Shown here: positions 48,419-61,649 of the stretch, piece by piece
Numbering within the stretch: position 1 is the stretch's first letter
Layout: every line of letters begins with the position of its first letter
NCBI GenBank assembly: GCA_016214845.1
Contig: JACRMS010000003.1
Location: 24,110-88,109, forward strand
From: Nitrospirota bacterium
GTDB taxonomy: Bacteria; Nitrospirota; Thermodesulfovibrionia; UBA6902
Reading direction: 5' to 3'
DNA: 64,000 nucleotides
Made by a program: the position numbers and the translations under genes
The notes under the pieces: generated by a model
Told to the model about the DNA's origin: nothing
The model's database searches: none
What the model saw: the letters and a program-made list of their open reading frames with translations, nothing else

Positions 48419-48424
48419 GGATTG

Positions 48425-48561: not shown

Positions 48562-48575
48562 TCAAAATTATTTTT

Positions 48576-49070: not shown

Positions 49071-49797
49071 ACATTCCCAAATTTACAAATCCATCTTCCG
49101 CCACGGGTATGAGGACACTAAGGAAAACAGGATACGGCAGATAAGGTCCAATATCTTCCTCCATGTCCACCCGGCAAAAATACCTGAACATGCGATGAAG
49201 ATACGCTTTACCTGGTGCATGGGAGGGATAACCTTTTTTCTGTTTCTGGTGGAAACTGTAACCGGGATACTGCTGATGTTTTATTACCGCCCTGTCCCTG
49301 AGTACGCCTATCTTGATATAAAGTACCTGGAATTTGACGTGCCTTTCGGCGTGGTCCTGAGAAACCTCCATCGCTGGGCCGCGCACCTGATGGTGATCAC
49401 AATCATGCTTCACATGCTGAGGGTCTTTCTTACCGGCTCATATAAACCTCCGAGGGAGTTCAACTGGGTAGTCGGCGTAACCTTACTGGTCCTCACTTTC
49501 CTGCTGAGCTTTACAGGCTATCTCCTGCCGTGGGACCAATTGGCTTATTGGGCCATAACGGTCGGCACAAATATGGTAAGGTCCATGCCGGTAATCGGAC
49601 ATGAAGGCCCGTTTGCAGTAGTTGATAAATATCATGACGTGCGATTTATGCTTCTTGGCGGCACAGAGATCGGAGGAAACGCGCTGTTAAGGTTTTATGT
49701 GCTGCACATTATGGCGCTGCCCTCTGCCGCGCTCATTTTCATAGGCGTTCATTTCTGGAGAATAAGAAAGGACGGAGGTATATCAAGACCGTTATAA
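49057..49797 (+). CDS. cytochrome b (b6-like N-terminal part)
   Basis: ATG 49057 overlaps the Rieske stop. Four-helix core with haem-ligand contexts RNLHRWAAHLM and RFYVLHIMALP. ...LLPWDQLAYWA... Confidence 0.85.
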   Translation: MWRFKHSQIYKSIFRHGYEDTKENRIRQIRSNIFLHVHPAKIPEHAMKIRFTWCMGGITFFLFLVETVTGILLMFYYRPVPEYAYLDIKYLEFDVPFGVVLRNLHRWAAHLMVITIMLHMLRVFLTGSYKPPREFNWVVGVTLLVLTFLLSFTGYLLPWDQLAYWAITVGTNMVRSMPVIGHEGPFAVVDKYHDVRFMLLGGTEIGGNALLRFYVLHIMALPSAALIFIGVHFWRIRKDGGISRPL

Positions 49798-49866
49798 GGG
49801 ATTAGGGGTTAGGGATTGGGGATTGGTCTTTCACTAACCCCTGATCCCTAACCCCCAATCCCTAAG
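49797..49866. repeat. G-rich/C-rich heptad palindrome (GGGGATT-type words) between cytochrome b and subunit IV
   Basis: agggattaggggttagggattggggattgg tctttcact aacccctgatccctaacccccaatccctaag. Confidence 0.85.
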
Positions 49867-49871
49867 ACACT

Positions 49872-50561
49872 ATGAATAAACAAGAACGAAAATACGTCTT
49901 CCCTGACCTGGCGTTTATGGAATTTCTGACTGCCGTGGCGCTGACGATTATCCTGATCGTGTGGGCGCTGCTTGCCAATGCCCCTTTGATGGAGATCGCT
50001 TCACCGGCAAGGTCAGAGAACCCTTCAAAGGCCCCGTGGTATTTTGTGGGATTGCAGGAGCTGTTAGTCTATTTTGACCCGTGGATGGCAGGGGTCATCA
50101 TACCAATGATCATTATCATCTGCCTCGCGGTAATTCCATATCTGGACAGAAACCCGCATGGCAGCGGCGGGTACTCGCTTTCTCTCAGAAAGTTTGCGGT
50201 AATAAATTTTATCTTCGGATTTTCGATGTGGGCCATACTGATCTTTATCGGATACTTTTTCAGGGGGCCGAACTGGCAAATATATTTGCCGTGGGAGTCG
50301 TGGGAACAGGTCAAAGACCTTGAAGAAAATCTCTGGAGCTTAAACCCGGTGATCGGGTTGATATTCATAGCAGCATATTTTTGCCTGTTCATGATCTTAC
50401 CGGGGATGATAAAAAAAGATTTTCACAAGCGATACGGTCCCATCAGATACGTGATCGTCATGCTTGCATTGGCCTCAATGTATTTTGTCCCGGTGAAAAT
50501 ATTCTTAAGGCTTGCCTTCGGTATCAAATATGTTTTGGTGACACCGTGGTTTAACGTGTGA
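49872..50561 (+). CDS. cytochrome b C-terminal part / subunit IV-like protein
   Basis: APWYFVGLQELLVYF (PEWY-type motif) followed by TM helices. It follows cytochrome b after a 74-nt palindromic spacer. Confidence 0.75.
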   Translation: MNKQERKYVFPDLAFMEFLTAVALTIILIVWALLANAPLMEIASPARSENPSKAPWYFVGLQELLVYFDPWMAGVIIPMIIIICLAVIPYLDRNPHGSGGYSLSLRKFAVINFIFGFSMWAILIFIGYFFRGPNWQIYLPWESWEQVKDLEENLWSLNPVIGLIFIAAYFCLFMILPGMIKKDFHKRYGPIRYVIVMLALASMYFVPVKIFLRLAFGIKYVLVTPWFNV

Positions 50562-50569
50562 ATAAAAAA

Positions 50570-50603
50570 TTGGGTTGGGGGTTGGGGATTAGGGTTTGGT
50601 TAG
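50570..50603. repeat. single-arm G-rich heptad repeat just upstream of the octahaem gene start
   Basis: aattgggttgggggttggggattagggtttggttagg. It has four G-runs (GGG TT GGGGG TT GGGG ATTA GGG). Confidence 0.8.
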
Positions 50604-50606
50604 GTT

Positions 50607-52655
50607 ATGAAACTGACACGACATCAACTAATTTTAAATGCCATATTCTGCACAGCGCTTTTAATTGTCATTCTCTGGGCGCTGTACAGCGAATACAATC
50701 GTCCGTGGAAAAAGTATCAGAAGGAAAAAAAAATCCAGCAGCTCTATCTTCAGGATATCGGCGGAACCGACCGCTGCATCACATGCCATCAGGGAGCGGA
50801 CAAACCCGGGTTCATCAACAGACCCCAGCCTTTTAAAACCCATTCGGGAGATTACCTGAAACATCATCCTGTTGAAAAATTCGGCTGTGTTGTCTGCCAT
50901 CAGGGACAGGGCGCGGCTTTGACAGTTGATGCGGCGCACGGCAATGTGAAGAACTGGACAAAGCCGATTTTGAAGGGTCCTTTTGCGCAATCTTCATGCG
51001 GAAAATGTCATTCCATGGACCAGGCGCTGCCGCTGAATGTTGAATTAAAGGGCGCATCGGCTTTTGTCGAGGGATGGAAACTTTTCAACGAGAACAATTG
51101 TCTTGGATGCCACAAACTCACCGGATACAAAGTGCCTGACAGAATCGCACCCGCTCTCACATCAATAGGCAATAAGGTCAACAGGGAATGGCTGATAAAA
51201 TGGCTGAAAAATCCAAAGGACTATCTGCCGAAAACAAAAATGCCGCGCTTTGACCTCAGTGATGAGGAGATCGGTTATGTCGCGGATTTTTTGATGGGTA
51301 AAAAAAATAACCCCTCCTTGTTCCTCCCCTTAGATAAGGGGAGGTTAGGTGGGGTTACAGGGAATGCAAATGGCATTCTTATATCACTCGGCTGTCTCGG
51401 CTGCCACACGATTGATGGGAACGGAAACAGTTTCGCTCCTGATCTGTCAAATATCGGCAGTAAGGTCAATGCGGACTGGCTTGTTCAATATTTGAAAAAC
51501 CCGAAGGCTTATCAGGCAAAGACACCTATGCCTAACCTCATGATAGCTGATGGAGAAATCCAAAGCATTGTCGGTTATCTTATGAGTTTGGAAGGGGATA
51601 ATCACAAAATAATAAATCCCCCTGCATCCCCCTTTTTCAAAGGGGGAGATCATTCCCCTCTATCAAGAGGGGTTAGGGGTGTGTCCTCCTCTTTAGCAAA
51701 GAGGGGCGAGGAAAAATTTTCCGAAAACATCGACAAGGGCAGAAAGCTTGTAAAAGACAAAGGCTGCACAGGCTGCCATGAGATAGAAAAATTTCCAACC
51801 GGATACGATGCCCCGACGCTTGACGGGATAGGAAGCAAAAGGGTTGATGAACTGGTTTTCGGCGATATCACCGGCGTTGATAAGACCCTGACAAATTGGC
51901 TGATGATCAAGGTTCAGGATCCCGAAAGGTTTGCCACAGACAGGATTGTGACGCGTATGCCAAATTATAATTTCAGTAAAGAGCAGGCAGAGGCGCTGGT
52001 GACTTTTCTCCTCGGCATAAGAAATGAATCAATCCCGTCAACTTACAAAAAGACGCTACTTGATCCTGACAAGCCAGAGATGAGAGGTGAAAGTGTTTTT
52101 GAGAAATATAACTGCGCGGGTTGCCACAAGTTTAATGATAAAGGCGGCAATATCGCCCCTGATATCAGTAAGGAAGCAAAAAAGAGCAGGCCGGAATGGT
52201 TATTCGCTTTTCTGAAAAGCCCGTATAAAATACGCCCTGAGTTTATGCTCAAAGCAAAGATGCCGGATTTCAATTTGTCCGATAAGGAAGTCAATTCCAT
52301 AGTCGGATACCTGGCCGCTGTCTCCGGAGAATCTTTCCCATATAATTTTGAACCAAAAAAAGAAGTTAGCGCAGGGGACATTGATGACGGTGAAAAATTA
52401 TACCAGGAAATATTTGCGTGCACTGGTTGTCATTCCGCGAACGGGCGCGGCGGGCAGATTGGCCCCGATCATACTGATGTGTCAAGCCGTTTGAAAAGGG
52501 AATGGATCGAGCAGTGGCTGAAAGACCCTCAAGCCGTACAGCCTGACGTCAGGATGCCGAAATTTAAATTCAGGGACTGGGAGTTTGAGGCATTAACTAA
52601 TTACCTCATGACCCTCGGCAAATACAGGTTTGTGCGGACAAAGAATGCTGATTAG
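50607..52655 (+). CDS. membrane-anchored octahaem c-type cytochrome subunit
   Basis: N-terminal TM helix LILNAIFCTALLIVILWALY. Eight CXXCH motifs, several in class-I-like modules (CLGCHKL...KTKMPRF, CAGCHKF...KAKMPDF, CTGCHSA...DVRMPKF). Confidence 0.85.
   Translation: MKLTRHQLILNAIFCTALLIVILWALYSEYNRPWKKYQKEKKIQQLYLQDIGGTDRCITCHQGADKPGFINRPQPFKTHSGDYLKHHPVEKFGCVVCHQGQGAALTVDAAHGNVKNWTKPILKGPFAQSSCGKCHSMDQALPLNVELKGASAFVEGWKLFNENNCLGCHKLTGYKVPDRIAPALTSIGNKVNREWLIKWLKNPKDYLPKTKMPRFDLSDEEIGYVADFLMGKKNNPSLFLPLDKGRLGGVTGNANGILISLGCLGCHTIDGNGNSFAPDLSNIGSKVNADWLVQYLKNPKAYQAKTPMPNLMIADGEIQSIVGYLMSLEGDNHKIINPPASPFFKGGDHSPLSRGVRGVSSSLAKRGEEKFSENIDKGRKLVKDKGCTGCHEIEKFPTGYDAPTLDGIGSKRVDELVFGDITGVDKTLTNWLMIKVQDPERFATDRIVTRMPNYNFSKEQAEALVTFLLGIRNESIPSTYKKTLLDPDKPEMRGESVFEKYNCAGCHKFNDKGGNIAPDISKEAKKSRPEWLFAFLKSPYKIRPEFMLKAKMPDFNLSDKEVNSIVGYLAAVSGESFPYNFEPKKEVSAGDIDDGEKLYQEIFACTGCHSANGRGGQIGPDHTDVSSRLKREWIEQWLKDPQAVQPDVRMPKFKFRDWEFEALTNYLMTLGKYRFVRTKNAD
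51310..51356. repeat. in-frame palindromic insertion 1 inside the octahaem cytochrome gene
   Basis: cccctccttgttCCTCCCCTTagataAGGGGAGGttaggtgggg. It is translated as PSLFLPLDKGRLGGV in a linker between cytochrome c modules. Confidence 0.7.
51617..51711. repeat. in-frame palindromic insertion 2 (three small hairpins) inside the octahaem cytochrome gene
   Basis: TCCCCCTttttcaaAGGGGGA, CCCCTCTatcaAGAGGGG and CCTCCTCTTTagcAAAGAGGgGcGAGG. Translated as PPASPFFKGGDHSPLSRGVRGVSSSLAKRGEE. Confidence 0.7.
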
Positions 52656-52810
52656 CAGCGGCGCGCCGAATTAGAAATTGTTCACATTACCCCCCCTGCA
52701 CCGGAACCCCTTTATTTTTCAGGTAAAGCTATTTGTCTAAAGAACCGAAAAGCATATATGTCATTACGTTATCATAATGGCATTAAAGACTGAACATTGA
52801 ACTTTAGAAT

Positions 52811-54850
52811 ATGACAGTATACTATATCAACCAAATGCTCATCCGGCTCTTGATAATATTCGCTATGCTGTCTGCTGTCCCGTCATATGCAGAGGACTCC
52901 ATTGTGAACATCATTAAGAAATACGAAAATACATTCCTGTCGCAGAGCGCCGGTGAGGACAGTAAGGTAATGTTAAAGGACCTGCTGTCACGAAGCTGCG
53001 GGGGACATTCGGATTTTGAAACCGAGGCCGCGTTCAGGAAAGAGCTTATCTCCGATTCGGAAAAAGACACGGGGTTGCATCTTGAGGGCGGATACAATTT
53101 TAATTCACGTGCCGAAGCTGAGATCAACAGGAAACAGCATCTCTACCTCGGGGTCTACTGGGATGTGCTCCGTGACGGGTATTACGCCGGGAAAAGGCGG
53201 GCATCTTCACATGAGAACGAACTCCGTATCCTGGAACTCAGGCAGCAGGAGATAAGACGCCGGGAGGACCTGCCCTGTTACGTTAATGCCATTATCTCGG
53301 AGTTCAGCTCAGCTAAACTGAAAATGCTGCATGACAAGCATCAGTTCCTGCAGGATGTCCTTCCCGAACTGAAGAGGCTCTACTATCTCGGATATTTGCC
53401 CTTTGAAGAGATAAGCGATCTCAAGAGCGAGACCGTTCAGACGGAAAACAGGATATCTCAGTATTATTACTTCAGCAGGCTGGCATCTCCGGCGGGGATT
53501 TCACCCGCATCTTCGGATATTGCACACAAAAGTTTTCCCGTCTTTGACGTGGACCTTGACGGGCTCCTCCGGGAAACAGACGCCAACGACACAACAGACA
53601 GGACAATCGGATTCAAAAAAGAGATACTGGACAATAAATATTCCCGCTGGAACGACGTGCGCTTAAAATTGTTTGCCCGAGCAAACACATATGAGGACAG
53701 CTCTAAATTTGACGAAGGCGCCTCACTCGGTTTTTACTTTTCAGTCCCTTTAAATGTGTTCAGGGAAAAGGCCGTCACGAGCGCTGAACTCGAAAGGGAT
53801 GCGGCAATGCTCCGCAGGGAGCAGAGCGGCAACATCGAGGACATTGTTGAAACCTGGTATGAATTAAAGTACAAGATCGACGATGTTATAAAGATGTACG
53901 GGAAAAAGCTGCATGTAACGGAGAAATTGAGGAGGGAAACCGTCAGGCAGGATTTCGACCCTGACAACTTTGATATGCTGCTTGCCGTCAGTCTGATGAA
54001 GGACCTTATGGATATTGACTTTGAAATGCTCGACGCTAAAGAGAAGGCTTACCTGAGGACGGCAAGGCTTTACGCCCTGTCGAAAGCGGAGAATTTTACG
54101 CAGTATGTAAACGAGGTCGAACTCAATGAACGGAATTTCGAGTTCAGAAGGCCCGGCGAGAGGGCGCTGTACATCTGGTCGGACGCCTTTAACAGGGAGG
54201 ACAACCGGTTCATTATCGAATTCGCTGTAACCAAGACTATCTCAACGATCATCCTGTCTTTCAGCGAAAAAACGGACCTCTCGAAGCTCAGCGTTTTTTT
54301 GGGTGAGGCGAAAAAGAGAAACATTTCCGTAGAGTTGATGGTAAGCTCTAACAACTGGATATTCCCTGAGAGGGCCGCGGAAGCGGAGACAAAATTAAAG
54401 GACATCCTGAACTACGGTCCTTCCGTCTCCGCTGTGCATATTGATATTGAGCCTCATACCCTTGAGGGCTGGAAGACAAACAGGGACGAATACATGGGCC
54501 TGTATATCGGAATGCTTGAAAGGATGAAAGAGATTGTTGCCGGTAAAATAAAAATGTCCGTATCAATTCCCGTCTTTTATGACGCTAAGTATCTCCCCCG
54601 GATCTTTCATGCGGCGGACAGGGTCTATGTCATGGCGTACGAAATAAAAGACATCGACAAATTGAAGAACGGGCTGCAGGAGGCAATGGAGGTTGATAAA
54701 GGGAAAATAGTTTTGGCCCTGAGGCCCAAAGATTTCACTAACGAATTGGAAATGGAAGAGTTCATCGAGAAGGTAATGGGCACTACGGGACTGGGCTCAT
54801 TTGCCTTCCATGATTTTGGCCAACATATAAATATTACGAGGCAGCCATGA
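52811..54850 (+). CDS. secreted fusion: TolC/OEP-like N-terminal half plus glycoside-hydrolase-like TIM-barrel C-terminal half
   Basis: Signal peptide ...LSAVPSYAED. OEP-like heptad/beta pattern (GLHLEGGYNFNS...LYLGVYWDVLRDGYYAGKRRA). C-terminal ...VELMVSSNNW...VHIDIEPH...VYVMAYE. Both domain calls were made by eye. Confidence 0.45.
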   Translation: MTVYYINQMLIRLLIIFAMLSAVPSYAEDSIVNIIKKYENTFLSQSAGEDSKVMLKDLLSRSCGGHSDFETEAAFRKELISDSEKDTGLHLEGGYNFNSRAEAEINRKQHLYLGVYWDVLRDGYYAGKRRASSHENELRILELRQQEIRRREDLPCYVNAIISEFSSAKLKMLHDKHQFLQDVLPELKRLYYLGYLPFEEISDLKSETVQTENRISQYYYFSRLASPAGISPASSDIAHKSFPVFDVDLDGLLRETDANDTTDRTIGFKKEILDNKYSRWNDVRLKLFARANTYEDSSKFDEGASLGFYFSVPLNVFREKAVTSAELERDAAMLRREQSGNIEDIVETWYELKYKIDDVIKMYGKKLHVTEKLRRETVRQDFDPDNFDMLLAVSLMKDLMDIDFEMLDAKEKAYLRTARLYALSKAENFTQYVNEVELNERNFEFRRPGERALYIWSDAFNREDNRFIIEFAVTKTISTIILSFSEKTDLSKLSVFLGEAKKRNISVELMVSSNNWIFPERAAEAETKLKDILNYGPSVSAVHIDIEPHTLEGWKTNRDEYMGLYIGMLERMKEIVAGKIKMSVSIPVFYDAKYLPRIFHAADRVYVMAYEIKDIDKLKNGLQEAMEVDKGKIVLALRPKDFTNELEMEEFIEKVMGTTGLGSFAFHDFGQHINITRQP

Positions 54851-55866
54851 AACTGAGAAACAAACAGACTTATATCAGGACAACAAAGGAAGAATTTACC
54901 GGGGGGAAGACAAACATAAGCAAGCTTATCTATTTTTCCGTGCTTATACTGTTAGCTTGCTTTGTCCTGTTCTATCTCTTCAGTAAGTTCTATTACGTCA
55001 ACGGCATCGGACAGGTCGTTTTCGATGTGACATATGTACAACCGGACAGGGACATAAGGATAGAAAAATTCCTGGTCGGGGAGGGAACGTTCGTAAAAAA
55101 AGGCGACCCCCTTATCGAGTACGAAACTTCAAGCTACCTCTATAATGTAAACACGCCCGGCGATGAAGGAAGACAGAGATATGATATGGACACTTTCAGG
55201 CTCCACAGGGACCTGGAAGAAAAAAAGATAGAAAAGACAGGCATCGAAAAAGAACTTGAACTGCTGCAAGGCCAGCTCGACAGCATATACAGGCTTCAGT
55301 CCCTCGAAATTTATATGAGAAAGGACATGTTGCCTGTGACAAAAAGGATTGACGAGCTCAGGCTCAAAAAGGACCTTATTGAAAATGAGATCACTCTGCT
55401 GAATGAACTGACCGGCCAGGTCCCCAGGGGCGCAGCGCGCCAGGGTGCAGGTGTTCAATCTTTTGATTACAGCGGCAAAGGAATAATTCAGTCGCCTTCA
55501 GACGGACAGGTAACAAAGCTTTACAGGGAAACTTATGAGGTCGTGCCCAAGGGAGACAACATTATTGCAATCCATCAGGTCCAAAATCCGAGGATAAAGG
55601 CGTACTTTGAGCAGAATGATATACAACACATTGCTTCCGGGCTGAAAGTTGACATTGAGTTTCCCGACGGCACAGGCGGCTGCGGGGTCATTGATAAACA
55701 TTATCCGTACACAACCCTGCCGCTCCCGGAGGAGCTTCAGATGAAATCCGAACCGGTGCACAGGTCGCTTGTCGCTGACATAACACCCTGTAAGGGGGAT
55801 GAAGAACGATGGAAATATTTTTATAAAATGAACGTGAAAGTAAAGGTAAAAAGATGGAAAAAATAA
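54847..55866 (+). CDS. HlyD/membrane-fusion-like periplasmic adaptor
   Basis: Single N-terminal TM helix. Lipoyl-like halves (IEKFLVGEGTFVKKGDPLIEYE and GIIQSPSDGQVTKLY) flank a coiled coil. ATGA overlap with the upstream gene. Confidence 0.65.
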   Translation: MKLRNKQTYIRTTKEEFTGGKTNISKLIYFSVLILLACFVLFYLFSKFYYVNGIGQVVFDVTYVQPDRDIRIEKFLVGEGTFVKKGDPLIEYETSSYLYNVNTPGDEGRQRYDMDTFRLHRDLEEKKIEKTGIEKELELLQGQLDSIYRLQSLEIYMRKDMLPVTKRIDELRLKKDLIENEITLLNELTGQVPRGAARQGAGVQSFDYSGKGIIQSPSDGQVTKLYRETYEVVPKGDNIIAIHQVQNPRIKAYFEQNDIQHIASGLKVDIEFPDGTGGCGVIDKHYPYTTLPLPEELQMKSEPVHRSLVADITPCKGDEERWKYFYKMNVKVKVKRWKK

Positions 55867-57257
55867 TTCTCATAACAGACAAACCGGAACAGGGCAAAGG
55901 CCTGTTTTCCCGGGTCCTCAGTCTTGATTCACTGGACTTAGAAGCTCTCAAAGATTTCGAGGCGGTTTTCATTGAAGCAGCGGATGCAGCCCGGGTTGAG
56001 GACACCGTAAGGGGAATAAAGGACCACCATGACATCAACGTTTACCTGAAGCCCCTCTTCCTGCTTGTAAAAGAGCAGGCCAAAGATGAGCGGCTCGCGG
56101 GCCTGCTGGACGGGACCATTGTCAAAGGCAATACGCTTGAGGAATCAATAAAAGCGGAGACCGGCAACATCCGGGGCATCAATAAAAAAATACAGGACAT
56201 CGCGGCTGCCGGACACGCCGATGACAACAGCATCACAACAAAGATACTGAGATATCTCTTCAGCCGCGGGCGGAAATTGTCCCCCATCCGCTCGGTAAGG
56301 TCCAGGTTCGGATATTTCTTCCCGGCACTGAACGCGTATCATTCAAAGGAAGATATCCAGGTATTCACCCTCCTGGATTTCATGAAGAAGGAGCAACTGC
56401 TTTCCGGCGTTTTCAGAGACCGGATACATCTGTGCAATTACTGCAACTCCGCCTTCCTGAATTTCAGGGAAACCTGCCCCCTGTGTAAATCGGCGGACCT
56501 CATAGTAAACGATCTCGTTCACCATTTTGTCTGCGGTTACACAGGCCCTGAAACAGACTTCAGGCAGGAAAACAGGACCGTTTGTCCCAAGTGCAGGACC
56601 GAACTTAAGCATATCGGCGTGGATTTTGACAGGCCTTCCGTTGTCTATGAATGCGCGGAATGCAAAGAGGTTTTTCAGGAGCCGGCAGTCGATTCCCTGT
56701 GCATAGCTTGCGGGAAGACATCCAGTGCGGACGACCTCGTTACCGAGGACATTGAAGAGTATGATCTGACGTCCCTTGGCAGGAACGCGGCATTCTCCGG
56801 GATTGATATGCTCTTTGTGAATATCCTGAAAAAAGAAGTGAACGTCTTGAGTCTCGATACATTCAAAGAGATCCTGAACCTTGAGGTCTTGAGGATCAAG
56901 AGATACAAGAACGTGGCAAGTTCAATCACGGCGCTTCACATGGACAACCTCGACCGTATCCAGACGGAGCTGGGATCAAAGGGGCAGTCTGTTTTCATGG
57001 AGATAGCAAAAGTCATCAGGGGATATGTCAGGGAGACAGACGTTGTTACAATGACGGGTAATTCTCTCTACCTGTTCTTATTTATTGAAACCCCCCTGGA
57101 AAACGTCCAGGGCGTTATGGACCGGTTGAAGAAATCCGTTGAGAAGCCCCTGACAGACAACCTGAACTTTTCTCCCTCCATCCGGACAATATCTCTTCCT
57201 GTTGACGGGAAAGCAGACGCGGCAGAACTCATAAATAATCTGTTAAAAGCAAGATGA
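55854..57257 (+). CDS. regulatory protein: N-terminal REC-like region, five-CxxC zinc-ribbon module, degenerate GGDEF domain with intact RxxD I-site
   Basis: CNYC, CPLC, CPKC, CAEC, CIAC between residues 194 and 286. GGDEF-fold pattern ...ALHMDNLDRIQTELGSKGQSVFMEIAKVIRGYVRETDVVTMTGNSLYLF (GGDEF replaced by GNSLY, with RETD five residues upstream). Confidence 0.6.
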   Translation: MEKIILITDKPEQGKGLFSRVLSLDSLDLEALKDFEAVFIEAADAARVEDTVRGIKDHHDINVYLKPLFLLVKEQAKDERLAGLLDGTIVKGNTLEESIKAETGNIRGINKKIQDIAAAGHADDNSITTKILRYLFSRGRKLSPIRSVRSRFGYFFPALNAYHSKEDIQVFTLLDFMKKEQLLSGVFRDRIHLCNYCNSAFLNFRETCPLCKSADLIVNDLVHHFVCGYTGPETDFRQENRTVCPKCRTELKHIGVDFDRPSVVYECAECKEVFQEPAVDSLCIACGKTSSADDLVTEDIEEYDLTSLGRNAAFSGIDMLFVNILKKEVNVLSLDTFKEILNLEVLRIKRYKNVASSITALHMDNLDRIQTELGSKGQSVFMEIAKVIRGYVRETDVVTMTGNSLYLFLFIETPLENVQGVMDRLKKSVEKPLTDNLNFSPSIRTISLPVDGKADAAELINNLLKAR

Positions 57258-58567
57258 CCGAATTTTTTGCGGACTTCCACGAGTTTTACCGGAATATGGG
57301 ATTTACAAAATTCCTTCGGCTGTTCTGGTATTTCGCTGTATTTGATTTCGTCCGGTATGTCGTGGGTGATTATATTGTTTTTGCCCTGTCCGTTATAAAA
57401 AGGAAAAAGAAAGAAGCGCAGTACAGCACGGCACGGGCCGACCTTTTTAACGACCGGCCGCTCGTATCAGTCATCGCCCCGGGGAAAAATGAGGGGAAGC
57501 ACATCCCCGGGCTCGCAAGGTCCCTGAAATTACAGACGTATAAGAACTATGAATTGATCATCGCTGACGACGGTTCTGATGATGACACCCCCGCCGTCTG
57601 CAGGCAGATGCTGCGGGAAAGGCTGATCGGCAGGTATTTCAGAAATGACGTAAGGGGAGGGAAGGCCTCAGCGGCAAATCTCGCGTTAAGGTACAGCCGC
57701 GGGAAATTTATTGTGCATGTTGACGCGGACACTTATCTGGACAGAAACGCAATTGAGAACATCATCACCCCTTTCTATCTCGATGAGAAAATAGGCGCGG
57801 TGGGCGGCGATGTCCGAGTGGCCAACAGCGATGGGTCTTTGGCAGCGTCCCTGCAGGCGATAGAGTATTTCAAAAGCATATCCATCGGGAGGTGGGTCTC
57901 CTCAACGTTCGGTATACTGAGGATAGTGCCGGGCGCTTTCGGCGCCTTCAGGAAGGACATTCTTGACAAGCTGAAAGGGTGGGACGTCGGCCCCGGTCTG
58001 GACGGGGATTTAACGGTCAAGATAAGAAAACTGCACTACAGGATCATCTTTGAGCACACGGCGTTTTGCCATACAAATGTCCCTGATACCTTTGCTAAAC
58101 TGGCAAGGCAGAGATACAGATGGGACCGGTCGCTCGTCAGGTTCAGGCTCAGGAAACACAGGGACGTATTTATGCCCTCGGAGAATTTCCGGTTCAACGA
58201 CTTTTTCTCCTTTCTTGAGAACTTCCTGTTCAATTTCATACTGAACCTCAAATGGTGGGTGTATCTCATTGACATCCTGCTGAATTATTCTTCCCTGATT
58301 AAATTTATTATCCCTATGAACTACATACTCTATTATTTGTCAAACATAATCCAGTATGTCATCGGTGTCATACTGCTCGGCAGGACCATAACAAAGAAAG
58401 AGTTGAAACTGTTCATATATCTCCCCCTCATGCCTTTATATACAACATTGTATATGAGAATTGTCAGGACGTATGCCTATCTGGGTGAACTGGTCTTCAA
58501 GCTGTCGTATAAGGACCGGTGGAACCCCGCCAAGGTCTCCCGCAAGGCCCTTGAAAAGGGGTTGTGA
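57254..58567 (+). CDS. processive family-2 glycosyltransferase (PgaC/IcaA/cellulose-synthase-like)
   Basis: IADDGSDDDT, VDADT, GAFGAFRK, QRYRW (Q(R/Q)xRW) motifs. TM helices at both ends. ATGA overlap with the upstream gene. Confidence 0.8.
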   Translation: MTEFFADFHEFYRNMGFTKFLRLFWYFAVFDFVRYVVGDYIVFALSVIKRKKKEAQYSTARADLFNDRPLVSVIAPGKNEGKHIPGLARSLKLQTYKNYELIIADDGSDDDTPAVCRQMLRERLIGRYFRNDVRGGKASAANLALRYSRGKFIVHVDADTYLDRNAIENIITPFYLDEKIGAVGGDVRVANSDGSLAASLQAIEYFKSISIGRWVSSTFGILRIVPGAFGAFRKDILDKLKGWDVGPGLDGDLTVKIRKLHYRIIFEHTAFCHTNVPDTFAKLARQRYRWDRSLVRFRLRKHRDVFMPSENFRFNDFFSFLENFLFNFILNLKWWVYLIDILLNYSSLIKFIIPMNYILYYLSNIIQYVIGVILLGRTITKKELKLFIYLPLMPLYTTLYMRIVRTYAYLGELVFKLSYKDRWNPAKVSRKALEKGL

Positions 58568-58568
58568 G

Positions 58569-58617
58569 TTATTGCACTTTTGTGCTTCTTAACTTTTGCA
58601 CCTTTACACTATTGCCC
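58569..58617. repeat. heptad-like word repeat at the convergent junction of the GT2 and PAS genes
   Basis: ttattgcacttttgtgcttcttaacttttgcacctttacactattgc. It overlaps the last codons of the minus-strand PAS gene. Confidence 0.6.
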
Positions 58618-59630
58618 TTCTTTACTTCAGTGTGTTCAGGAAATTGTTTACTGACACAATCGGGACAAAGGCCGTGAGTGAATTCGGCGTCCGTGCGCTC
58701 GCGGATGTAATCATCAACCTGCTTCCAGTAGCCGCCGTCATCACGGATCTTTTTGCATGAGCAGCAGATAGGGAGCAGCCCGCTCAGGGTCTTGACCCTG
58801 ACGAGAGCATCCGTAAGATCAAAGATCAGTTTATTACGCTCTTCTTCAAGCTTCTTTTGTTCGGTGATGTCCCTGACAACGTGGACCAGGCCGATGATTT
58901 GTCTGTCTTCCCCAAAACGCGGGAGCGACTTTATTTCAAGACATTTTCTCAGGTTCGGCTCAAACATTTCCGTGGTGGTGGGCAAACCGGTCTTTAAGGT
59001 CCTGCAGCTTGGGCAGTTCTCAGGCGGGGAAGCTGACCCGTGGTAGGATTCATAGCATTTATGTTTCAGGAGTTTCAGGAATTCCGAATCAAGCATTTCT
59101 TTTGCCGCCTTATTGGCGCGCACTATATTAAAATCCATATCGTGAATAGTTATTGCCTCGTTAATGATATCGAAGGTCTCTTTCCATTCTTTTTTCTCCT
59201 GGAAGATCAGGTGCTCCAACTGCGTGTGAATAGTCACGTCCCTTACAACCTCCATACCGGCAACGGTCCTTCCTGATGAGTCTTTAATGGCCGAAGAAGT
59301 AATTTCAACGATCAGCTTTCCGTTTTTGGAAGGGTTGGTCCTCACGGCTGTGTGGACCCTCCCGTCTTCAAATGATTTCGTTAAAGGGCAGGCTTCACAA
59401 ATGTTGTCTCTTTTTTCAAAAGCGCTGTAACAGAATTCACCGACATGATTTCCTATGATGTCTATCGCCTTTTTGTTCTGATATAAGATCCTGTAATCCG
59501 TGTCCTGGATGCTTATCCCGTCTCCAACGGCCTCAAGTATCCCGTGTCCGACAATTTTTTCTATGAGCTGTTTCCCGGTCTTGGCTTTTGCCTTCATTCT
59601 GTCCATCCCCTCTTCAGACTTTGGTTGCAA
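58569..59630 (-). CDS. tandem-PAS signalling protein with a C-terminal Cys4 module (LPICCSCKKIRDDGGYW...HGLCPDC)
   Basis: Two PAS-like segments (...GISIQDTDYRILYQN... and ...AITIHDMDFNIVRAN...). Coiled-coil linker. Conserved-looking C-terminal CxxC...CxxC. The last ~17 codons run through a repeat element. Confidence 0.65.
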   Translation of the reverse strand: MQPKSEEGMDRMKAKAKTGKQLIEKIVGHGILEAVGDGISIQDTDYRILYQNKKAIDIIGNHVGEFCYSAFEKRDNICEACPLTKSFEDGRVHTAVRTNPSKNGKLIVEITSSAIKDSSGRTVAGMEVVRDVTIHTQLEHLIFQEKKEWKETFDIINEAITIHDMDFNIVRANKAAKEMLDSEFLKLLKHKCYESYHGSASPPENCPSCRTLKTGLPTTTEMFEPNLRKCLEIKSLPRFGEDRQIIGLVHVVRDITEQKKLEEERNKLIFDLTDALVRVKTLSGLLPICCSCKKIRDDGGYWKQVDDYIRERTDAEFTHGLCPDCVSKQFPEHTEVKKGNSVKVQKLRSTKVQ

Positions 59631-59717
59631 GGTTAATGTTTTTCATCGTTATAATTTCTTTATCAAAAAGCTTCCTGCTTGTCTATCGTAAATTTACTTT
59701 GCCGCATCGGGGACCTT

Positions 59718-60176
59718 TCACTTTACCCTCTGTATCCTTCTGATTATTTCGCTTGTGGATATCCCCTCAACAAAGGGGATTGTGCGTACTTCTTTAGCAA
59801 TGTCCGCCCCGACGATATCTTTTACGTCCCAGTCCGCGCCTTTAACAAGCACGTCCGGTTGAATATTTTTTATAAGCTCATACGGGGTGTCTTCGTCAAA
59901 AAGCGTCACGTAATCAACCATGTATAATGCCGCGAGGACTTCCGCCCTCTCCTTTTCCGGATTAACGGGCCTGCCGGGTTTGATGCTTGAAACTGAACGG
60001 TCCGAATTCAGCCCTATGACGAGGATGTCCCCGAGCTTTTTGGCCCCGGTCAGATAGCGGACATGCCCCACGTGAATAATGTCAAAGCAGCCGTTGGTAA
60101 AGACGATCCTGCTGCCTTGCTGCTTTAACTTGTCTATAATATTTTTCAACGCTGCCCTGTCAACGATCTTATTCAT
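59718..60176 (-). CDS. rfaE2: D-glycero-beta-D-manno-heptose 1-phosphate adenylyltransferase (RfaE domain II type)
   Basis: Cytidylyltransferase motif FTNGCFDIIHVGHVRYL. 152 aa. Confidence 0.8.
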   Translation of the reverse strand: MNKIVDRAALKNIIDKLKQQGSRIVFTNGCFDIIHVGHVRYLTGAKKLGDILVIGLNSDRSVSSIKPGRPVNPEKERAEVLAALYMVDYVTLFDEDTPYELIKNIQPDVLVKGADWDVKDIVGADIAKEVRTIPFVEGISTSEIIRRIQRVK

Positions 60177-60185
60177 TGCAGTCCA

Positions 60186-60223
60186 TTTTAAATTTTAAAT
60201 CTTAAATTTGCAATTTCAAATTC
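60186..60223. repeat. AT-rich heptad tandem repeat (TTTTAAA TTTTAAA TCTTAAA TTTGCAA TTTCAAA)
   Basis: Five related 7-mers in the divergent region between rfaE2 and the phosphomannomutase gene. Confidence 0.75.
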
Positions 60224-60275
60224 AGTGCGCCTGATGTATGTTATAATTTACGACTGTAAATTCAAAGGAGGCCTA

Positions 60276-61649
60276 ATGATAAATCCGGCTATCTTCAGGC
60301 AATACGACATCAGAGGTGTATGGGAAAAGGATTTAACTCCTGAGGTAGTCGAACTTATAGGCAGGGGGTTTGCCTCGTATCTGCGTAAGTCAATTAAAAG
60401 AGACCGGGCAAAGATAAGCATTGGAAGGGACGCAAGGCTGCATTCTCCGGCGATTAGAGACAGTCTTATCAGGGGCTTAACAAGTTCCGGGATCGATATC
60501 GTTGACCTCGGTGTTTGTCCGACACCCCTTCAATACTACTCAATGCATAAACTTCAGCTTGACGGCGGCGTGATGATTACCGGCAGCCATAATCCCCCGG
60601 AATTTAATGGATTTAAGCTGAGCGTCGGAAGGACCACTATTTTCGGAGACGCGATACAGGAGATCAGGAAAATCATAGACGCAAATGCCCTTATGAACGG
60701 AAGCGGCAAGGTTGAAACATATCCGGTAATTGACGACTATATTAGTTTTATAAAAAATAAATTTGAAAGCCTTTCAGGACTCAGGGTCGTAGTTGACGCC
60801 GGCAACGGCACAGGAGGTCTTGTCGCGCCTCAGATCATGAAGGCCCTTGGGGCAGAGGTAATAGAGCTTTACTGCGAGCCTGACGGGAATTTTCCGAACC
60901 ACCATCCCGATCCAACCGTGGAAAAATATCTCACTGACCTCATTGCAAAGGTCAAAGAACTGAAGGCCCATGTCGGTTTCGGTTATGACGGAGACGCTGA
61001 CAGGATCGGCGCCATTGACGAGGACGGCAATATCATCTGGGGTGATAAATTAATGATAATCTTTTCGCGGGACATCCTCAAAGACAACCCCGGGGCAAAG
61101 ATAATCGGCGAAGTAAAATGCTCCCAGACCCTTTATGACGATATCTCGGCCCACGGCGGGGTCCCTGTGATGTGGAAGACCGGACACTCTCTTATCAAAG
61201 AAAAACTTAAGAAGGAGCATGCCCTGCTTGCCGGCGAAATGAGCGGGCACCTGTTTTTCGCCCACAGATATTTAGGCTACGATGACGCGATCTATGCAAG
61301 TCTGAGGCTCCTTGAGATCATAAAGAAGGCCGGTTTGCCATACAGTACGAAGGCCTTGTTGCAAGATGTCCCTCACACCGTTGCGACTCCTGAGATAAGG
61401 TTTGACTGCCCTGATGAGATCAAATTCAAGATAGCCGAAAAAGCCCAGGAGGCGTTTAATGAGTACCCGTCAATCACCATTGACGGCATCAGGATCCAGT
61501 TTGACGACGGGTGGGCGCTCATCCGGGCTTCCAACACCCAACCCGTCCTGGTCCTGCGCTTCGAGGCAAAAAATGAAGCCCGCCTTTTGGAGATCAGAAA
61601 TTTTGTTGAATCACGGTTAAATCAAATAATTGAGGGACATAGGTCTTGA
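60276..61649 (+). CDS. phosphomannomutase/phosphoglucomutase
   Basis: AAGGAGG before ATG 60276. FRQYDIRG, active-site TGSHNPPEFNGFK, Mg site GYDGDADR, GEMSGH. Confidence 0.9.
   Translation: MINPAIFRQYDIRGVWEKDLTPEVVELIGRGFASYLRKSIKRDRAKISIGRDARLHSPAIRDSLIRGLTSSGIDIVDLGVCPTPLQYYSMHKLQLDGGVMITGSHNPPEFNGFKLSVGRTTIFGDAIQEIRKIIDANALMNGSGKVETYPVIDDYISFIKNKFESLSGLRVVVDAGNGTGGLVAPQIMKALGAEVIELYCEPDGNFPNHHPDPTVEKYLTDLIAKVKELKAHVGFGYDGDADRIGAIDEDGNIIWGDKLMIIFSRDILKDNPGAKIIGEVKCSQTLYDDISAHGGVPVMWKTGHSLIKEKLKKEHALLAGEMSGHLFFAHRYLGYDDAIYASLRLLEIIKKAGLPYSTKALLQDVPHTVATPEIRFDCPDEIKFKIAEKAQEAFNEYPSITIDGIRIQFDDGWALIRASNTQPVLVLRFEAKNEARLLEIRNFVESRLNQIIEGHRS

What the first reader, a model, noticed from the sequence alone, without database searches (positions are those of the whole stretch)
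52811..58567. Compact four-gene synthase-dependent exopolysaccharide system with unusual parts
Seen in the sequence: four translationally coupled genes (overlaps at 54847, 55854 and 57254).
1. A secreted protein. Its N-terminal half looks TolC/OEP-like and its C-terminal half looks like a glycoside-hydrolase-type TIM barrel.
2. An HlyD/membrane-fusion-like adaptor.
3. A regulator with a five-CxxC zinc-ribbon module and a degenerate GGDEF domain.
4. A family-2 glycosyltransferase with D,D,D and QRYRW motifs (nt 58109-58123) and flanking TM helices.

Established knowledge: synthase-dependent systems (cellulose, PNAG, alginate, Pel) combine a processive GT2, a c-di-GMP receptor, a periplasmic co-polymerase or adaptor, a glycan-modifying hydrolase and an outer-membrane exporter.

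Inference: all five roles seem to be covered by four proteins in a domain arrangement I do not recognise from the named systems. In particular, the outer-membrane channel appears fused to the hydrolase, and an MFP adaptor is used as in tripartite efflux pumps.
Basis: partly seen in the sequence, partly recalled or inferred. Interest (0 to 1): 0.65.

Follow-up and report, generated by a model that had tools for sequence, protein, structure and literature searches.

The report
Four-gene exopolysaccharide synthesis and export operon
This is a real, widely conserved four-gene operon that most likely makes a sugar polymer and pushes it out through its own TolC-type outer-membrane duct, which carries a built-in sugar-cutting domain; it is probably a rearranged relative of the little-understood Shewanella Mxd biofilm system.

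Summary
Four ORFs lie at 52811-58567 on the + strand and overlap by 4, 13 and 4 nt.

- **P1** has a signal peptide and a complete TolC-type outer-membrane-factor fold (AlphaFold2 pLDDT 93; Foldseek E=5e-12). This is fused to a TIM barrel with invariant HxDxE and MxY motifs in the GH18 register.
- **P2** is a membrane-anchored HlyD-type adaptor.
- **P3** is a TackOD1 zinc-ribbon domain (Pfam E=8e-58) plus a degenerate GGDEF domain. That domain keeps an I-site RxxD.
- **P4** is a PgaC-like processive family-2 glycosyltransferase (GT2).

The same gene order occurs in essentially all 80 related loci I fetched, out of 350 hits spanning at least six phyla. No other gene is conserved beside it. Two pairs never separate: P3 then P4, and P1 then P2. 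Permuted or P1-less versions sit on plasmids of Aeromonas, Plesiomonas, Photobacterium and several alphaproteobacteria.

Best reading: a self-contained, probably c-di-GMP-gated GT2-MFP-OMF machine that exports a polysaccharide, probably one containing N-acetylhexosamine.

It is not unprecedented. BgsAB-TolC and cyanobacterial XcsAB-TolC use the same tripartite logic. Shewanella mxdABCD has the same composition, but I could not test its homology directly. The duct-hydrolase fusion and the TackOD1-synthase coupling appear undescribed.

The parts
52811..54850 (+). P1 (679 aa): secreted fusion of an outer-membrane-factor (TolC-type) channel and a C-terminal TIM barrel.
   Evidence: ORF. No Pfam, NCBIfam or PDB sequence hit for the window protein itself. 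Exhaustive HMMER found 667 representative relatives, nearly all matching full length. AlphaFold2 pLDDT 93.4.
52811..52897 (+). P1 signal peptide (MTVYYINQMLIRLLIIFAMLSAVPSYA|ED). No lipobox Cys.
   Evidence: Hydropathy peak at residues 2-20; sequence. The cleavage site is inferred from the sequence.
52988..54085 (+). P1 OMF/TolC-like domain (about aa 60-425): four beta strands (89-97, 109-118, 284-296, 299-311) and long paired helices.
   Evidence: Secondary structure. Foldseek hits to TolC, ST50, CusC, VceC, OprM, OprN and MtrE: E 5e-12 to 4e-8, TM-score (target-normalised) 0.5-0.62. Pfam OEP matches 19 of 70 family members, best E=2.5e-10.
54143..54847 (+). P1 C-terminal (beta/alpha)8 barrel (about aa 445-679), GH18-like. 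Key motifs: YIWS (54170-54181), HIDIE (54437-54451) and MAY (54632-54640).
   Evidence: Eight alternating strand-helix units and generic TIM-barrel Foldseek hits. W456, D545, E547, M608 and Y610 are invariant in 109 relatives and present in about 70 of 76 locus homologues. Pfam Glyco_hydro_18 is the only recurrent barrel family, in 11 of 70 members, best E=3.2e-5. A profile search hits PDB 10yv_A, 'putative GH97 from Cellulomonas fimi', at E=1.6e-10.
54847..55866 (+). P2 (339 aa): membrane-fusion / periplasmic adaptor protein with an N-terminal TM anchor (aa 27-45, nt 54925-54981).
   Evidence: Pfam HlyD_3 E=2.8e-6, above the cut-off. NCBIfam type_I_hlyD, RND_mfp and DevB are weak. TM helix. 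The lipoyl and beta-barrel halves are conserved, whereas the coiled-coil region is variable.
55854..57257 (+). P3 (467 aa): cytoplasmic regulator with no TM segment. It has a receiver-like N-terminal region, a TackOD1 domain and a degenerate GGDEF domain.
   Evidence: The N-terminal receiver likeness is weak (hhalign vs E. coli CheY, E=0.0046, probability 7.6%).
56226..56768 (+). TackOD1 zinc-ribbon module (aa 125-305): five CxxC plus HxxC.
   Evidence: Pfam PF18551 E=8.1e-58, 195.5 bits against a cut-off of 32. Motif positions. All 13 Cys/His ligand positions are invariant in 83 homologues. The domain is described in PMC5847659.
56862..57248 (+). Degenerate GGDEF domain (aa 337-465). The I-site RETD is at nt 57030-57041. 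GNSLY replaces GG[DE]EF at nt 57057-57071.
   Evidence: Pfam GGDEF E=9.5e-6; NCBIfam GGDEF domain 28.7 bits, below its cut-off of 37.4. RxxD sits five residues before the degenerate motif. It is kept in all of the roughly 50 non-Bacteroidota homologues and mostly lost in Bacteroidota.
57254..58567 (+). P4 (437 aa): membrane-embedded processive family-2 glycosyltransferase, PgaC-like. Motifs: DDGS (57566-57577), DAD (57722-57730), LDGDLT (57998-58015) and QRYRW (58109-58123).
   Evidence: Pfam GT2 E=1.7e-24 and Chitin_synth_2 E=4.9e-14. NCBIfam PgaC_IcaA E=2.2e-44, but 152 bits against a cut-off of 422; NodC E=4e-17; CelA only 1e-3. 25% identity to E. coli PgaC over 378 aa, E=2e-33. Hydrophobic segments at 27-45, 335-353, 358-376 and 386-404.

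Best explanation
The four genes encode one self-contained, envelope-spanning machine that makes and exports an exopolysaccharide.

- P4 sits in the inner membrane. It polymerises a nucleotide sugar, most likely UDP-GlcNAc or another N-acetylhexosamine donor, and threads the chain through its own membrane pore, as PgaC, BcsA and hyaluronan synthase do.
- P3 is a soluble cytoplasmic partner. It senses c-di-GMP at the retained RxxD inhibitory-site motif of its catalytically dead GGDEF domain. It switches P4 on through its zinc-ribbon TackOD1 domain.
- P2 is anchored in the inner membrane. It bridges the periplasm like the adaptor of a tripartite efflux pump or type I secretion system.
- P1 trimerises into a TolC-type duct through the outer membrane. 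Its C-terminal GH18-like TIM barrel hangs on the periplasmic side of the duct. There it trims, releases or clears polymer, the role BcsZ, PelA, AlgL and the PgaB C-domain play in other synthase-dependent systems.

Shown here: the folds and domains, the intact catalytic motifs, translational coupling, and conservation of the module. Inferred: c-di-GMP binding, P3-P4 and P2-P1 contacts, hydrolase activity, the periplasmic location of the barrel (from the known position of the TolC C-terminus; established knowledge), and polymer chemistry.
For: 1. The gene order P1-P2-P3-P4 is preserved on one strand in essentially all 80 fetched loci where the contig allows. These come from Gamma-, Zeta- and Betaproteobacteria, Desulfobacterota, Fibrobacter, Nitrospirae, Aminicenantes, Bacteroidota and Caldisericaceae. 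No flanking gene family is shared by more than 9 loci, so the module is complete in itself.
2. In every arrangement seen, P3 directly precedes P4, and P1 (when present) directly precedes P2. The arrangements are the window type, Aeromonas P3-P4-P1-P2, and P3-P4-P2 in Plesiomonas, Photobacterium, Phyllobacterium, Aminobacter and Palleronia.
3. P1 has the full OMF fold.
4. P4 keeps D, D, D and QxxRW and aligns end to end with PgaC.
5. In P3 the GGDEF motif is degenerate in 83 of 83 homologues. RxxD is kept in all non-Bacteroidota homologues and mostly lost in Bacteroidota. From my own knowledge, that phylum has little c-di-GMP signalling.
6. In Palleronia the same TackOD1 module is driven by a true receiver domain next to Hpt and histidine-kinase genes. 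This fits TackOD1 as the output that couples variable inputs to the synthase.
7. The barrel's invariant HxDxE at the end of strand 4 and MxY at the end of strand 6 match the GH18 DxDxE and MxYD positions. The positions of these motifs in GH18 are from my own knowledge. This fits a HexNAc polymer made by a PgaC/NodC/chitin-synthase-like GT2.
8. Precedents exist: BgsAB-TolC (PMC13438883), XcsAB-TolC (PMC12430437), and MxdA as a c-di-GMP effector thought to activate the Mxd machinery (PMC7666153).
9. An RfaE-II heptose gene nearby indicates a diderm, LPS-bearing host.
Against: - No biochemical or expression data exist. Only DNA metagenome runs hold the sequence.
- The GH18 link is sub-threshold. 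The window protein itself has no Pfam hit. hhalign against E. coli ChiA is not significant (E=0.085). Foldseek finds only generic TIM barrels.
- The barrel is attached outside the predicted duct, so how it would reach a chain travelling inside a sealed MFP-OMF conduit is unclear.
- A few relatives lack the barrel (L005) or its motifs (L045), so it is dispensable in some lineages.
- The cluster has no deacetylase and no sugar-precursor genes, so polymer identity rests on weak family resemblance.
- The RxxD motif alone does not prove c-di-GMP binding.
Confidence: 0.68

Rival explanations
1. The machine is the same, but the TIM barrel does not hydrolyse the exported polymer. Instead it binds or remodels peptidoglycan (whose backbone contains GlcNAc) to seat the duct in the cell wall, or it acts as a non-catalytic lectin or guide for the chain.
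For: The barrel is fused where the TolC C-terminus lies, at the equatorial level of the periplasmic barrel (established TolC structure; topology). Some P1 relatives carry N-terminal SPOR or AMIN peptidoglycan-binding domains, or Sel1 repeats. The family assignment is only sub-threshold. Some lineages lack the barrel.
Against: D545, E547, M608 and Y610 are invariant or near-invariant across more than 100 relatives at the catalytic positions of GH18. Such conservation is typical of an active enzyme. All well-studied synthase-dependent systems include a periplasmic glycanase or lyase for their own polymer (established knowledge).
Confidence: 0.17
2. P3 is not a c-di-GMP receptor. It is a constitutive structural subunit or chaperone of the synthase (a PgaD- or BcsB-like co-factor), or a zinc- or redox-sensing switch acting through its 13 Cys/His ligands. 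The GGDEF remnant would then be merely a scaffold.
For: Bacteroidota homologues mostly lack the Arg of RxxD yet keep the whole operon. The most strongly conserved feature of P3 is the Cys/His set, not the GGDEF remnant. The function of TackOD1 is called 'obscure' in the only paper describing it.
Against: RxxD is kept in all of the roughly 50 non-Bacteroidota homologues, at the canonical five-residue spacing from the degenerate motif. It is also kept in the gammaproteobacterial sister group as RDTD. Shewanella MxdA, of matching description, binds c-di-GMP according to PMC7666153 and PMC11395469.
Confidence: 0.15
3. The product is not a high-molecular-weight exopolysaccharide. It would be a short oligosaccharide or glycolipid (NodC-like or ceramide/hopanoid-glycosyltransferase-like), extruded by an efflux-pump-like MFP-OMF pair.
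For: P4 also shows weaker similarity to NodC (E=4e-17), HpnI and ceramide glucosyltransferase. MFP-OMF pairs normally export small molecules or proteins.
Against: The cluster contains no ABC, RND or MFS inner-membrane transporter, so the MFP's only available partner is the GT2 itself. P4 has the QxxRW motif and C-terminal TM bundle of processive, self-translocating synthases, and it aligns full length with PgaC. A fused endo-type barrel makes most sense with a polymer.
Confidence: 0.1

Closest known systems
Shewanella oneidensis MR-1 mxdABCD biofilm matrix operon
   Same: It has four genes. They encode a protein with a degenerate GGDEF domain that binds c-di-GMP and is thought to activate the machinery (MxdA), a membrane family-2 glycosyltransferase (MxdB), an efflux-pump-like protein (MxdC) and a hypothetical protein (MxdD). 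The operon is required for three-dimensional biofilm, and its polymer is unknown (PMC3691769, PMC7666153, PMC11395469). Plasmid-borne clusters in Aeromonas, Plesiomonas and Photobacterium start with a TackOD1-GGDEF gene followed by a GT2, as mxdA-mxdB does. They are homologous to P3, P4 and P2, and in Aeromonas also to P1.
   Different: The gene order in the window is P1-P2-P3-P4, not regulator first. The papers I could read do not mention TackOD1, an OMF fold or a fused TIM barrel for Mxd proteins.
BgsA-BgsB-TolC (mixed-linkage beta-glucan, Sinorhizobium meliloti) and XcsA-XcsB-TolC (cyanobacterial cellulose)
   Same: A processive GT2 synthase is coupled through an HlyD-type membrane fusion protein to a TolC-type outer-membrane channel and activated by c-di-GMP. 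Cyanobacterial operons also include an endoglucanase (PMC13438883, PMC12430437).
   Different: In those systems TolC is the housekeeping channel, encoded elsewhere. Here a dedicated OMF is in the operon and fused to the hydrolase. There c-di-GMP binds a domain of the synthase itself (the BgsA C-terminus, or PilZ). Here the presumed receptor is a separate TackOD1-GGDEF protein. The synthases are cellulose/curdlan-like there and PgaC-like here (CelA E=1e-3 against PgaC E=2e-44).
PgaABCD / IcaADBC poly-beta-1,6-GlcNAc (PNAG) system
   Same: P4 is most similar to PgaC/IcaA among curated families and aligns over 378 residues with E. coli PgaC (25% identity, E=2e-33). Size and TM layout are also similar.
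   Different: P4 scores 152 bits against the equivalog cut-off of 422. There is no PgaD, no CE4 deacetylase or GH153 (PgaB; hhalign gives no match) and no TPR-porin PgaA. Export uses MFP plus OMF instead.
Pel (PelD), Bacillus YdaK and Listeria PssE: degenerate-GGDEF I-site receptors of EPS synthases
   Same: A catalytically dead GGDEF domain that retains RxxD is used as a c-di-GMP receptor to activate a polysaccharide synthase (established knowledge, recalled, not tested here).
   Different: Those receptors are membrane-anchored and lack a zinc-ribbon module. P3 is soluble and carries TackOD1. The partner synthases and export routes differ.
TolC / outer membrane factor family (Pfam OEP PF02321)
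   Same: The whole-protomer fold matches: four beta strands plus long helical hairpins.
   Different: Sequence identity to solved OMFs is about 10%, and the window protein is below Pfam detection. It carries a roughly 235-residue C-terminal TIM barrel that is absent from the OMF structures matched (chains of 402-493 residues) and that I have not seen described for any OMF (my own knowledge).

Membership tests
Synthase-dependent exopolysaccharide secretion systems (general class) | Inner-membrane processive glycosyltransferase with D, D, D and QxxRW motifs and its own TM pore | tested here: met
   DDGS, DAD, LDGDLT and QRYRW are present, along with an N-terminal and three C-terminal hydrophobic segments and a full-length PgaC alignment.
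Synthase-dependent exopolysaccharide secretion systems (general class) | Post-translational activation by a c-di-GMP receptor | tested here: inconclusive
   The GGDEF domain is degenerate, with a conserved RxxD at canonical spacing. Binding itself cannot be tested with these tools.
Synthase-dependent exopolysaccharide secretion systems (general class) | Dedicated outer-membrane exporter and periplasmic polymer-modifying enzyme encoded in the operon | tested here: met
   P1 combines the OMF fold with a TIM barrel in one polypeptide. Enzyme activity is inferred only.
Shewanella Mxd system | Sequence homology of each protein to MxdA-D (SO_4180-SO_4177) | not testable with these tools
   No Shewanella chromosome is in the accessible collections. 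The founding papers are not held.
Shewanella Mxd system | Composition: degenerate-GGDEF c-di-GMP effector + GT2 + efflux-pump-like protein + fourth protein | tested here: met
   Searches compared with the descriptions in PMC3691769 and PMC7666153.
Shewanella Mxd system | Gene order: regulator first, then GT2, then export genes | tested here: not met
   The window order is OMF-MFP-regulator-GT2. The regulator-first order is seen in the Aeromonas, Plesiomonas and Photobacterium relatives.
Tripartite GT2-MFP-TolC glycan exporters (Bgs/Xcs type) | GT2 synthase and HlyD-type MFP encoded together, with a TolC-type channel required | tested here: met
   P4, P2 and P1 lie in one translationally coupled operon. 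A physical complex was not tested.
Tripartite GT2-MFP-TolC glycan exporters (Bgs/Xcs type) | c-di-GMP-binding domain (PilZ or BgsA C-terminus) within the synthase polypeptide | tested here: not met
   P4 ends after its TM bundle and has no extra domain or PilZ hit.
PgaABCD PNAG system | PgaC equivalog score; presence of PgaD, PgaB (CE4+GH153) and PgaA (TPR porin) | tested here: not met
   TIGR03937 scores 152 bits against a cut-off of 422. No PgaA, PgaB or PgaD homologue is in the cluster, and no gene family recurs beside the related loci. hhalign of the P1 family against PgaB gives no match.
Outer membrane factor / TolC family | Protomer fold with four barrel strands and long alpha-hairpins | tested here: met
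   AlphaFold2 pLDDT 93.4. Foldseek E=5e-12 to TolC, target TM-score up to 0.62.
Outer membrane factor / TolC family | Pfam OEP (PF02321) match above the gathering score | tested here: not met
   The window protein has no hit. 19 of 70 relatives match, best E=2.5e-10. NCBI annotates the Aeromonas relative as 'TolC family protein'.
Glycoside hydrolase family 18 | (beta/alpha)8 barrel with DxDxE at the end of strand 4 and MxYD at the end of strand 6; Pfam PF00704 match | tested here: inconclusive
   The barrel is present and HxDxE and MxY[E/G] are invariant. PF00704 hits are sub-threshold, in 11 of 70 relatives. hhalign against E. coli ChiA aligns DIE with DIE, but at E=0.085. The first two Asp are replaced (S/H and H).
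TackOD1 (PF18551) | Profile match; five CxxC plus HxxC | tested here: met
   195.5 bits against a cut-off of 32. Motifs. Description in PMC5847659.
Active diguanylate cyclases (GGDEF) | GG[DE]EF active-site motif | tested here: not met
   The window has GNSLY. The motif is degenerate in 83 of 83 homologues.
Membrane fusion proteins (HlyD family) | Pfam HlyD_3 above the gathering score; N-terminal membrane anchor | tested here: met
   28.5 bits against 22.2; TM helix at residues 27-45. NCBIfam subfamily cut-offs are not reached.

The most novel reading that the evidence does not exclude
This operon typifies an undescribed, phylum-spanning class of synthase-dependent polysaccharide secretion, with three distinguishing features.

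1. A PgaC-like synthase is plugged directly into a dedicated type-I-secretion-like MFP-OMF conduit encoded in cis.
2. The outer-membrane duct carries its own GH18-like glycanase as a fused domain.
3. The previously function-less TackOD1 zinc-ribbon domain is the universal coupling module. It transmits interchangeable inputs (c-di-GMP through a dead GGDEF domain, phosphorylation through a receiver domain) to the synthase.

On this reading, Shewanella Mxd would be one rearranged member of the class.
Probability: 0.4. Interest if true: 0.75.

Novelty: new variant of a known kind. Interest (0 to 1): 0.6.

Why it matters
1. The idea that TolC-type ducts and HlyD adaptors export synthase-made glycans currently rests on systems where TolC is encoded elsewhere. 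A review calls that model unvalidated for this reason (PMC12430437). Here the synthase, adaptor and duct are translationally coupled and co-inherited across phyla. This is the strongest kind of genomic evidence for such a complex, and it offers a compact four-gene cassette for testing.
2. It gives TackOD1, a domain whose role was called obscure (PMC5847659), a concrete and testable function: a partner of a GT2 synthase.
3. An outer-membrane factor with a fused enzyme domain is unusual for the TolC family. It raises a mechanistic question about how a periplasmic glycanase accesses a chain in a sealed conduit.
4. If Mxd is homologous, the analysis supplies domain-level hypotheses for a 20-year-old biofilm locus whose polymer is still unknown.
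5. A version of the cluster sits on a mobilizable Aeromonas plasmid, so the biofilm trait can move between strains.

Tried and rejected
**Searches that returned nothing useful**
- A word-indexed homology search for P1 returned only P1 itself.
- The third and last such search, using a 30-sequence P3 alignment, added nothing and no Shewanella protein.
- A Pfam scan of that alignment exceeded the size limit.
- A literature search for the Cellulomonas fimi 'GH97' structure found nothing relevant.

**Structure and fold comparisons**
- Single-sequence AlphaFold2 of P1 was poor (pLDDT 42). Using that model to bias Foldseek towards the barrel gave only generic TIM barrels.
- The P1 profile against PgaB gave no match. 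Against E. coli ChiA it was not significant.
- P3 N-terminus against CheY gave only a weak receiver-like register.

**Regulatory and expression evidence**
- No Rfam family, and so no c-di-GMP riboswitch, lies within 50000-61000.
- Promoter and terminator scans did not differ from shuffled sequence.
- Only DNA metagenome runs hold the locus, so there is no expression evidence.

**The Mxd link**
- The founding Mxd papers (Thormann 2006, Rakshe 2011) are not held.
- My recollection that MxdA has an 'NVDEF' motif could not be verified, so I did not use it as evidence.

**Readings rejected**
- PNAG (Pga) membership: cut-off not met and the partner genes are absent.
- An active diguanylate cyclase: the motif is degenerate in all homologues.
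- Chance juxtaposition: the order is conserved in 80 loci.

Full report
**1. Observation**

The window carries four same-strand ORFs at 52811-54850 (P1, 679 aa), 54847-55866 (P2, 339 aa), 55854-57257 (P3, 467 aa) and 57254-58567 (P4, 437 aa). The junction sequences show ATGA start/stop overlaps at 54847 and 57254 and a 13-nt overlap at 55854. A 155-nt gap lies upstream. Downstream, a convergent PAS-domain gene ends 1 nt after P4. The unit is therefore four genes. The sequence comes from a groundwater metagenome and is held only in DNA runs.

**2. What each protein is**

*P4* is a family-2 glycosyltransferase.
- Pfam gives Glycos_transf_2 E=1.7e-24, Glyco_trans_2_3 E=2.6e-15 and Chitin_synth_2 E=4.9e-14.
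- Among curated NCBI families it is closest to PgaC/IcaA (E=2.2e-44), but at 152 bits against a cut-off of 422. An XrtG-associated GT follows at E=2.3e-32, then NodC at 4e-17. Cellulose synthase reaches only 1e-3.
- It aligns with E. coli PgaC over 378 residues at 25% identity (E=2e-33).
- DDGS (aa 105), DAD (157), LDGDLT (249) and QRYRW (286; nt 58109-58123) are present. There is one N-terminal and three C-terminal hydrophobic segments.

*P2* passes the Pfam HlyD_3 threshold (28.5 bits against 22.2). It gives weak hits to type I HlyD, RND MFP and DevB models. It has a single N-terminal TM helix at residues 27-45. Its lipoyl and beta-barrel halves are conserved, while the central coiled coil is variable.

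*P3* has no TM segment.
- Residues 125-305 match Pfam TackOD1 at E=8e-58.
- The only paper in the library that mentions TackOD1 describes five CxxC plus one HxxC, occurrence in thaumarchaeal type IV pilus loci and some bacteria, and an 'obscure' function (PMC5847659).
- Residues 337-465 are a weak GGDEF domain (E=9.5e-6). GNSLY stands in place of GG[DE]EF, and RETD lies exactly five residues upstream, the canonical I-site position.
- The N-terminal 120 residues align weakly with the beta3-beta5 part of CheY (E=0.0046, probability 7.6%). At most this is a hint of a pseudo-receiver.

*P1* has no hit in Pfam, NCBIfam or PDB sequences, and no relative by the word-indexed search.
- Exhaustive HMMER found 667 representative relatives (242 at E<=1e-30), almost all matching end to end. 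The two-domain fusion is therefore the family norm.
- A single-sequence AlphaFold2 model was poor. With a 109-sequence alignment (A1) the model reached pLDDT 93.4 and pTM 0.87.
- Residues ~68-423 show four beta strands and long helices in the TolC order. Foldseek matched TolC, ST50, CusC, VceC, SilC, OprM/N/J, CmeC and MtrE at E 5e-12 to 4e-8 over ~410-450 columns, with target TM-scores of 0.5-0.62. Nineteen of 70 relatives hit Pfam OEP, best E=2.5e-10.
- Residues ~445-679 are an eight-fold beta/alpha barrel. Fold searches give only generic TIM barrels, including an EndoE GH18 domain at 2.4e-4.
- Sequence evidence on the barrel is more specific. GH18 is the only barrel family that recurs among relatives (11 of 70, best E=3.2e-5). 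W456, D545, E547, M608 and Y610 are invariant in the 109-sequence alignment. The positions H543-x-D545-x-E547-P and M608-x-Y610 are conserved in about 70 of 76 locus homologues.
- These residues sit at the ends of strands 4 and 6. From my own knowledge, that is where GH18 enzymes carry DxDxE and MxYD. In relative P0015 the GH18 profile hit spans the HLDIEP motif. hhalign against E. coli ChiA puts DIE on DIE but is not significant (E=0.085).
- The family profile also hits PDB 10yv, a stand-alone 275-residue 'putative GH97 from Cellulomonas fimi', at E=1.6e-10.
- My conclusion: the fold is certain, a GH18-like active site is likely, and activity is untested.

**3. Conservation**

Scanning one genome per species (GTDB) with the P3 alignment gave 350 loci that encode a relative. 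The best 80 were fetched.

I called ORFs and searched them with HMMs for the four proteins. P1-P2-P3-P4 appeared in that order on one strand in essentially every locus where the contig extends far enough. The organisms are Gamma-, Zeta- and Betaproteobacteria, Desulfobacterota (including a multicellular magnetotactic bacterium), Fibrobacter, Nitrospirae, Aminicenantes, Bacteroidota and Caldisericaceae.

Only one metagenomic contig had P3 alone (L007). Clustering all flanking ORFs showed that no family is shared by more than 9 loci. The four genes are therefore the whole conserved module, and the sugar donor is probably a housekeeping nucleotide sugar.

**4. Variants**

A tblastn search of plasmids with P3 found homologous clusters in other orders.

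| Replicon | Gene order |
|---|---|
| Plesiomonas shigelloides p1, Photobacterium pDA100 | P3-like, P4-like, P2-like (no P1) |
| Phyllobacterium, Aminobacter | same three genes |
| Palleronia | same three genes, but the regulator is a true REC-TackOD1 response regulator beside Hpt and kinase genes |
| Aeromonas caviae pKAM345_3 (mobilizable, 29 kb) | P3-like, P4-like, then a 694-aa 'TolC family protein', then an HlyD protein |

The Aeromonas 'TolC family protein' is a distant P1 homologue that includes the barrel (hhalign probability 97.4%, E=1e-11).

Across all arrangements, P3 immediately precedes P4, and P1 immediately precedes P2. This suggests a cytoplasmic/inner-membrane pair and an envelope pair. 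Clusters without P1 presumably borrow the housekeeping TolC, as shown genetically for BgsAB (PMC13438883).

**5. The c-di-GMP inference**

In 83 homologues the GGDEF motif is always degenerate and all 13 Cys/His ligands are invariant. RxxD is kept in every non-Bacteroidota sequence (about 50) and in the gammaproteobacterial sister group as RDTD. Most Bacteroidota have TPAD or KxxD instead.

From my own knowledge, Bacteroidota make little use of c-di-GMP. The pattern is what one would expect if RxxD is a working c-di-GMP site that decays where the signal is absent. This is inference, not proof.

**6. Mechanism proposed**

- P4 polymerises and translocates the chain.
- P3 binds c-di-GMP and activates P4 through TackOD1.
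- P2 bridges P4 to the P1 trimer.
- P1 conducts the chain across the outer membrane. Its barrel, attached at the position of the TolC C-terminus on the periplasmic side (established TolC structure), trims or clears polymer.

A PgaC/NodC/chitin-synthase-like GT2 paired with a GH18-like barrel points to an N-acetylhexosamine-containing beta-glycan. I give that about 45%.

An RfaE-II heptose gene nearby (187.8 bits against a cut-off of 181.5) is consistent with a diderm host.

Open problem: how a barrel outside the duct reaches a chain inside a sealed conduit. The barrel is absent from one Bacteroidota lineage (L005) and degenerate in one Colwellia locus.

**7. Comparison with known systems**

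The GT2-MFP-TolC logic is published for mixed-linkage glucan (PMC13438883) and proposed for cyanobacterial cellulose (PMC12430437). The latter review notes that TolC being encoded elsewhere leaves that model unvalidated.

The closest named system by composition is Shewanella mxdABCD. I estimate about 0.75 that Mxd is homologous, probably with the Aeromonas-type or Plesiomonas-type order.

The cluster is not a Pga system.

**8. Verdict**

This is a real, ancient, self-contained EPS module. Novelty is moderate. The tripartite export idea and probably the Mxd locus are known. The in-cis OMF-glycanase fusion, the fixed TackOD1-synthase pairing and the wide distribution do not appear in the literature I could search.

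Noticed in passing
window 46067-52655 (+): Directly upstream lies a respiratory gene set. It comprises a molybdopterin oxidoreductase most like the arsenite oxidase large subunit (309 bits, below cut-off), a Rieske protein, a b-type cytochrome scoring 288.5 against the ExtP cut-off of 290, an ExtQ-like membrane protein and a 682-aa multihaem c-type cytochrome. It is probably a separate operon.
   Followed up: partly
window 58569-59630 (-): A convergent gene ends 1 nt after P4. It encodes a PAS-domain protein (at least two PAS matches) with no kinase domain. It has a Cys-rich C-terminal tail (LPICCSCKKIRDD...HGLCPDC) that matches no Pfam family. The gene is also adjacent in the other contigs of the same organism. 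It is not conserved next to the operon in other taxa.
   Followed up: partly
L091 6584-8944 and L093 1-3462 (Aeromonas caviae plasmid pKAM345_3, NZ_AP024951.1): A 29-kb mobilizable plasmid carries a permuted version of the system, running across the record origin: TackOD1-GGDEF, GT2, a 694-aa 'TolC family protein' with the barrel, then HlyD. The biofilm or EPS module can therefore be plasmid-borne.
   Followed up: partly
L095 5341-9415 (Palleronia sp. plasmid NZ_CP136762.1): Here the TackOD1 protein is a genuine response regulator (REC + TackOD1, 565 aa), followed by the GT2 and an HlyD-like protein. It sits beside Hpt and histidine-kinase genes. The same output module is thus driven by phosphorelay instead of a degenerate GGDEF domain.
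   Followed up: partly
L005 3823-12525 (Bacteroidota MAG GCA_039194925.1): The P1 homologue is only 501 aa and lacks the TIM barrel, and P3 lacks the RxxD Arg. The operon is flanked by UDP-glucose 6-dehydrogenase and GlmS, which hints at a GlcA/GlcNAc-type product in that lineage.
   Followed up: partly
P1 relatives P0021, P0024, P0025, P0046, P0052, P0063, P0133: Some family members carry N-terminal extensions with Sel1 repeats, SPOR domains or a sub-threshold AMIN match. SPOR and AMIN are known peptidoglycan-binding domains (established knowledge). This suggests the duct is tied to the cell wall in some lineages.
   Followed up: no
whole window /: The best match to P3 among one-genome-per-species representatives is only 38% identical. 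The groundwater organism that carries this window therefore has no close relative in that collection.
   Followed up: no
P1 aa 474-598 vs PDB 10yv_A: A solved but apparently unpublished 275-residue structure labelled 'putative GH97 from Cellulomonas fimi' shares the LD[IV]EP[HW]TL motif with the P1 barrel (E=1.6e-10). It is a stand-alone relative in a Gram-positive bacterium. No paper was found.
   Followed up: partly
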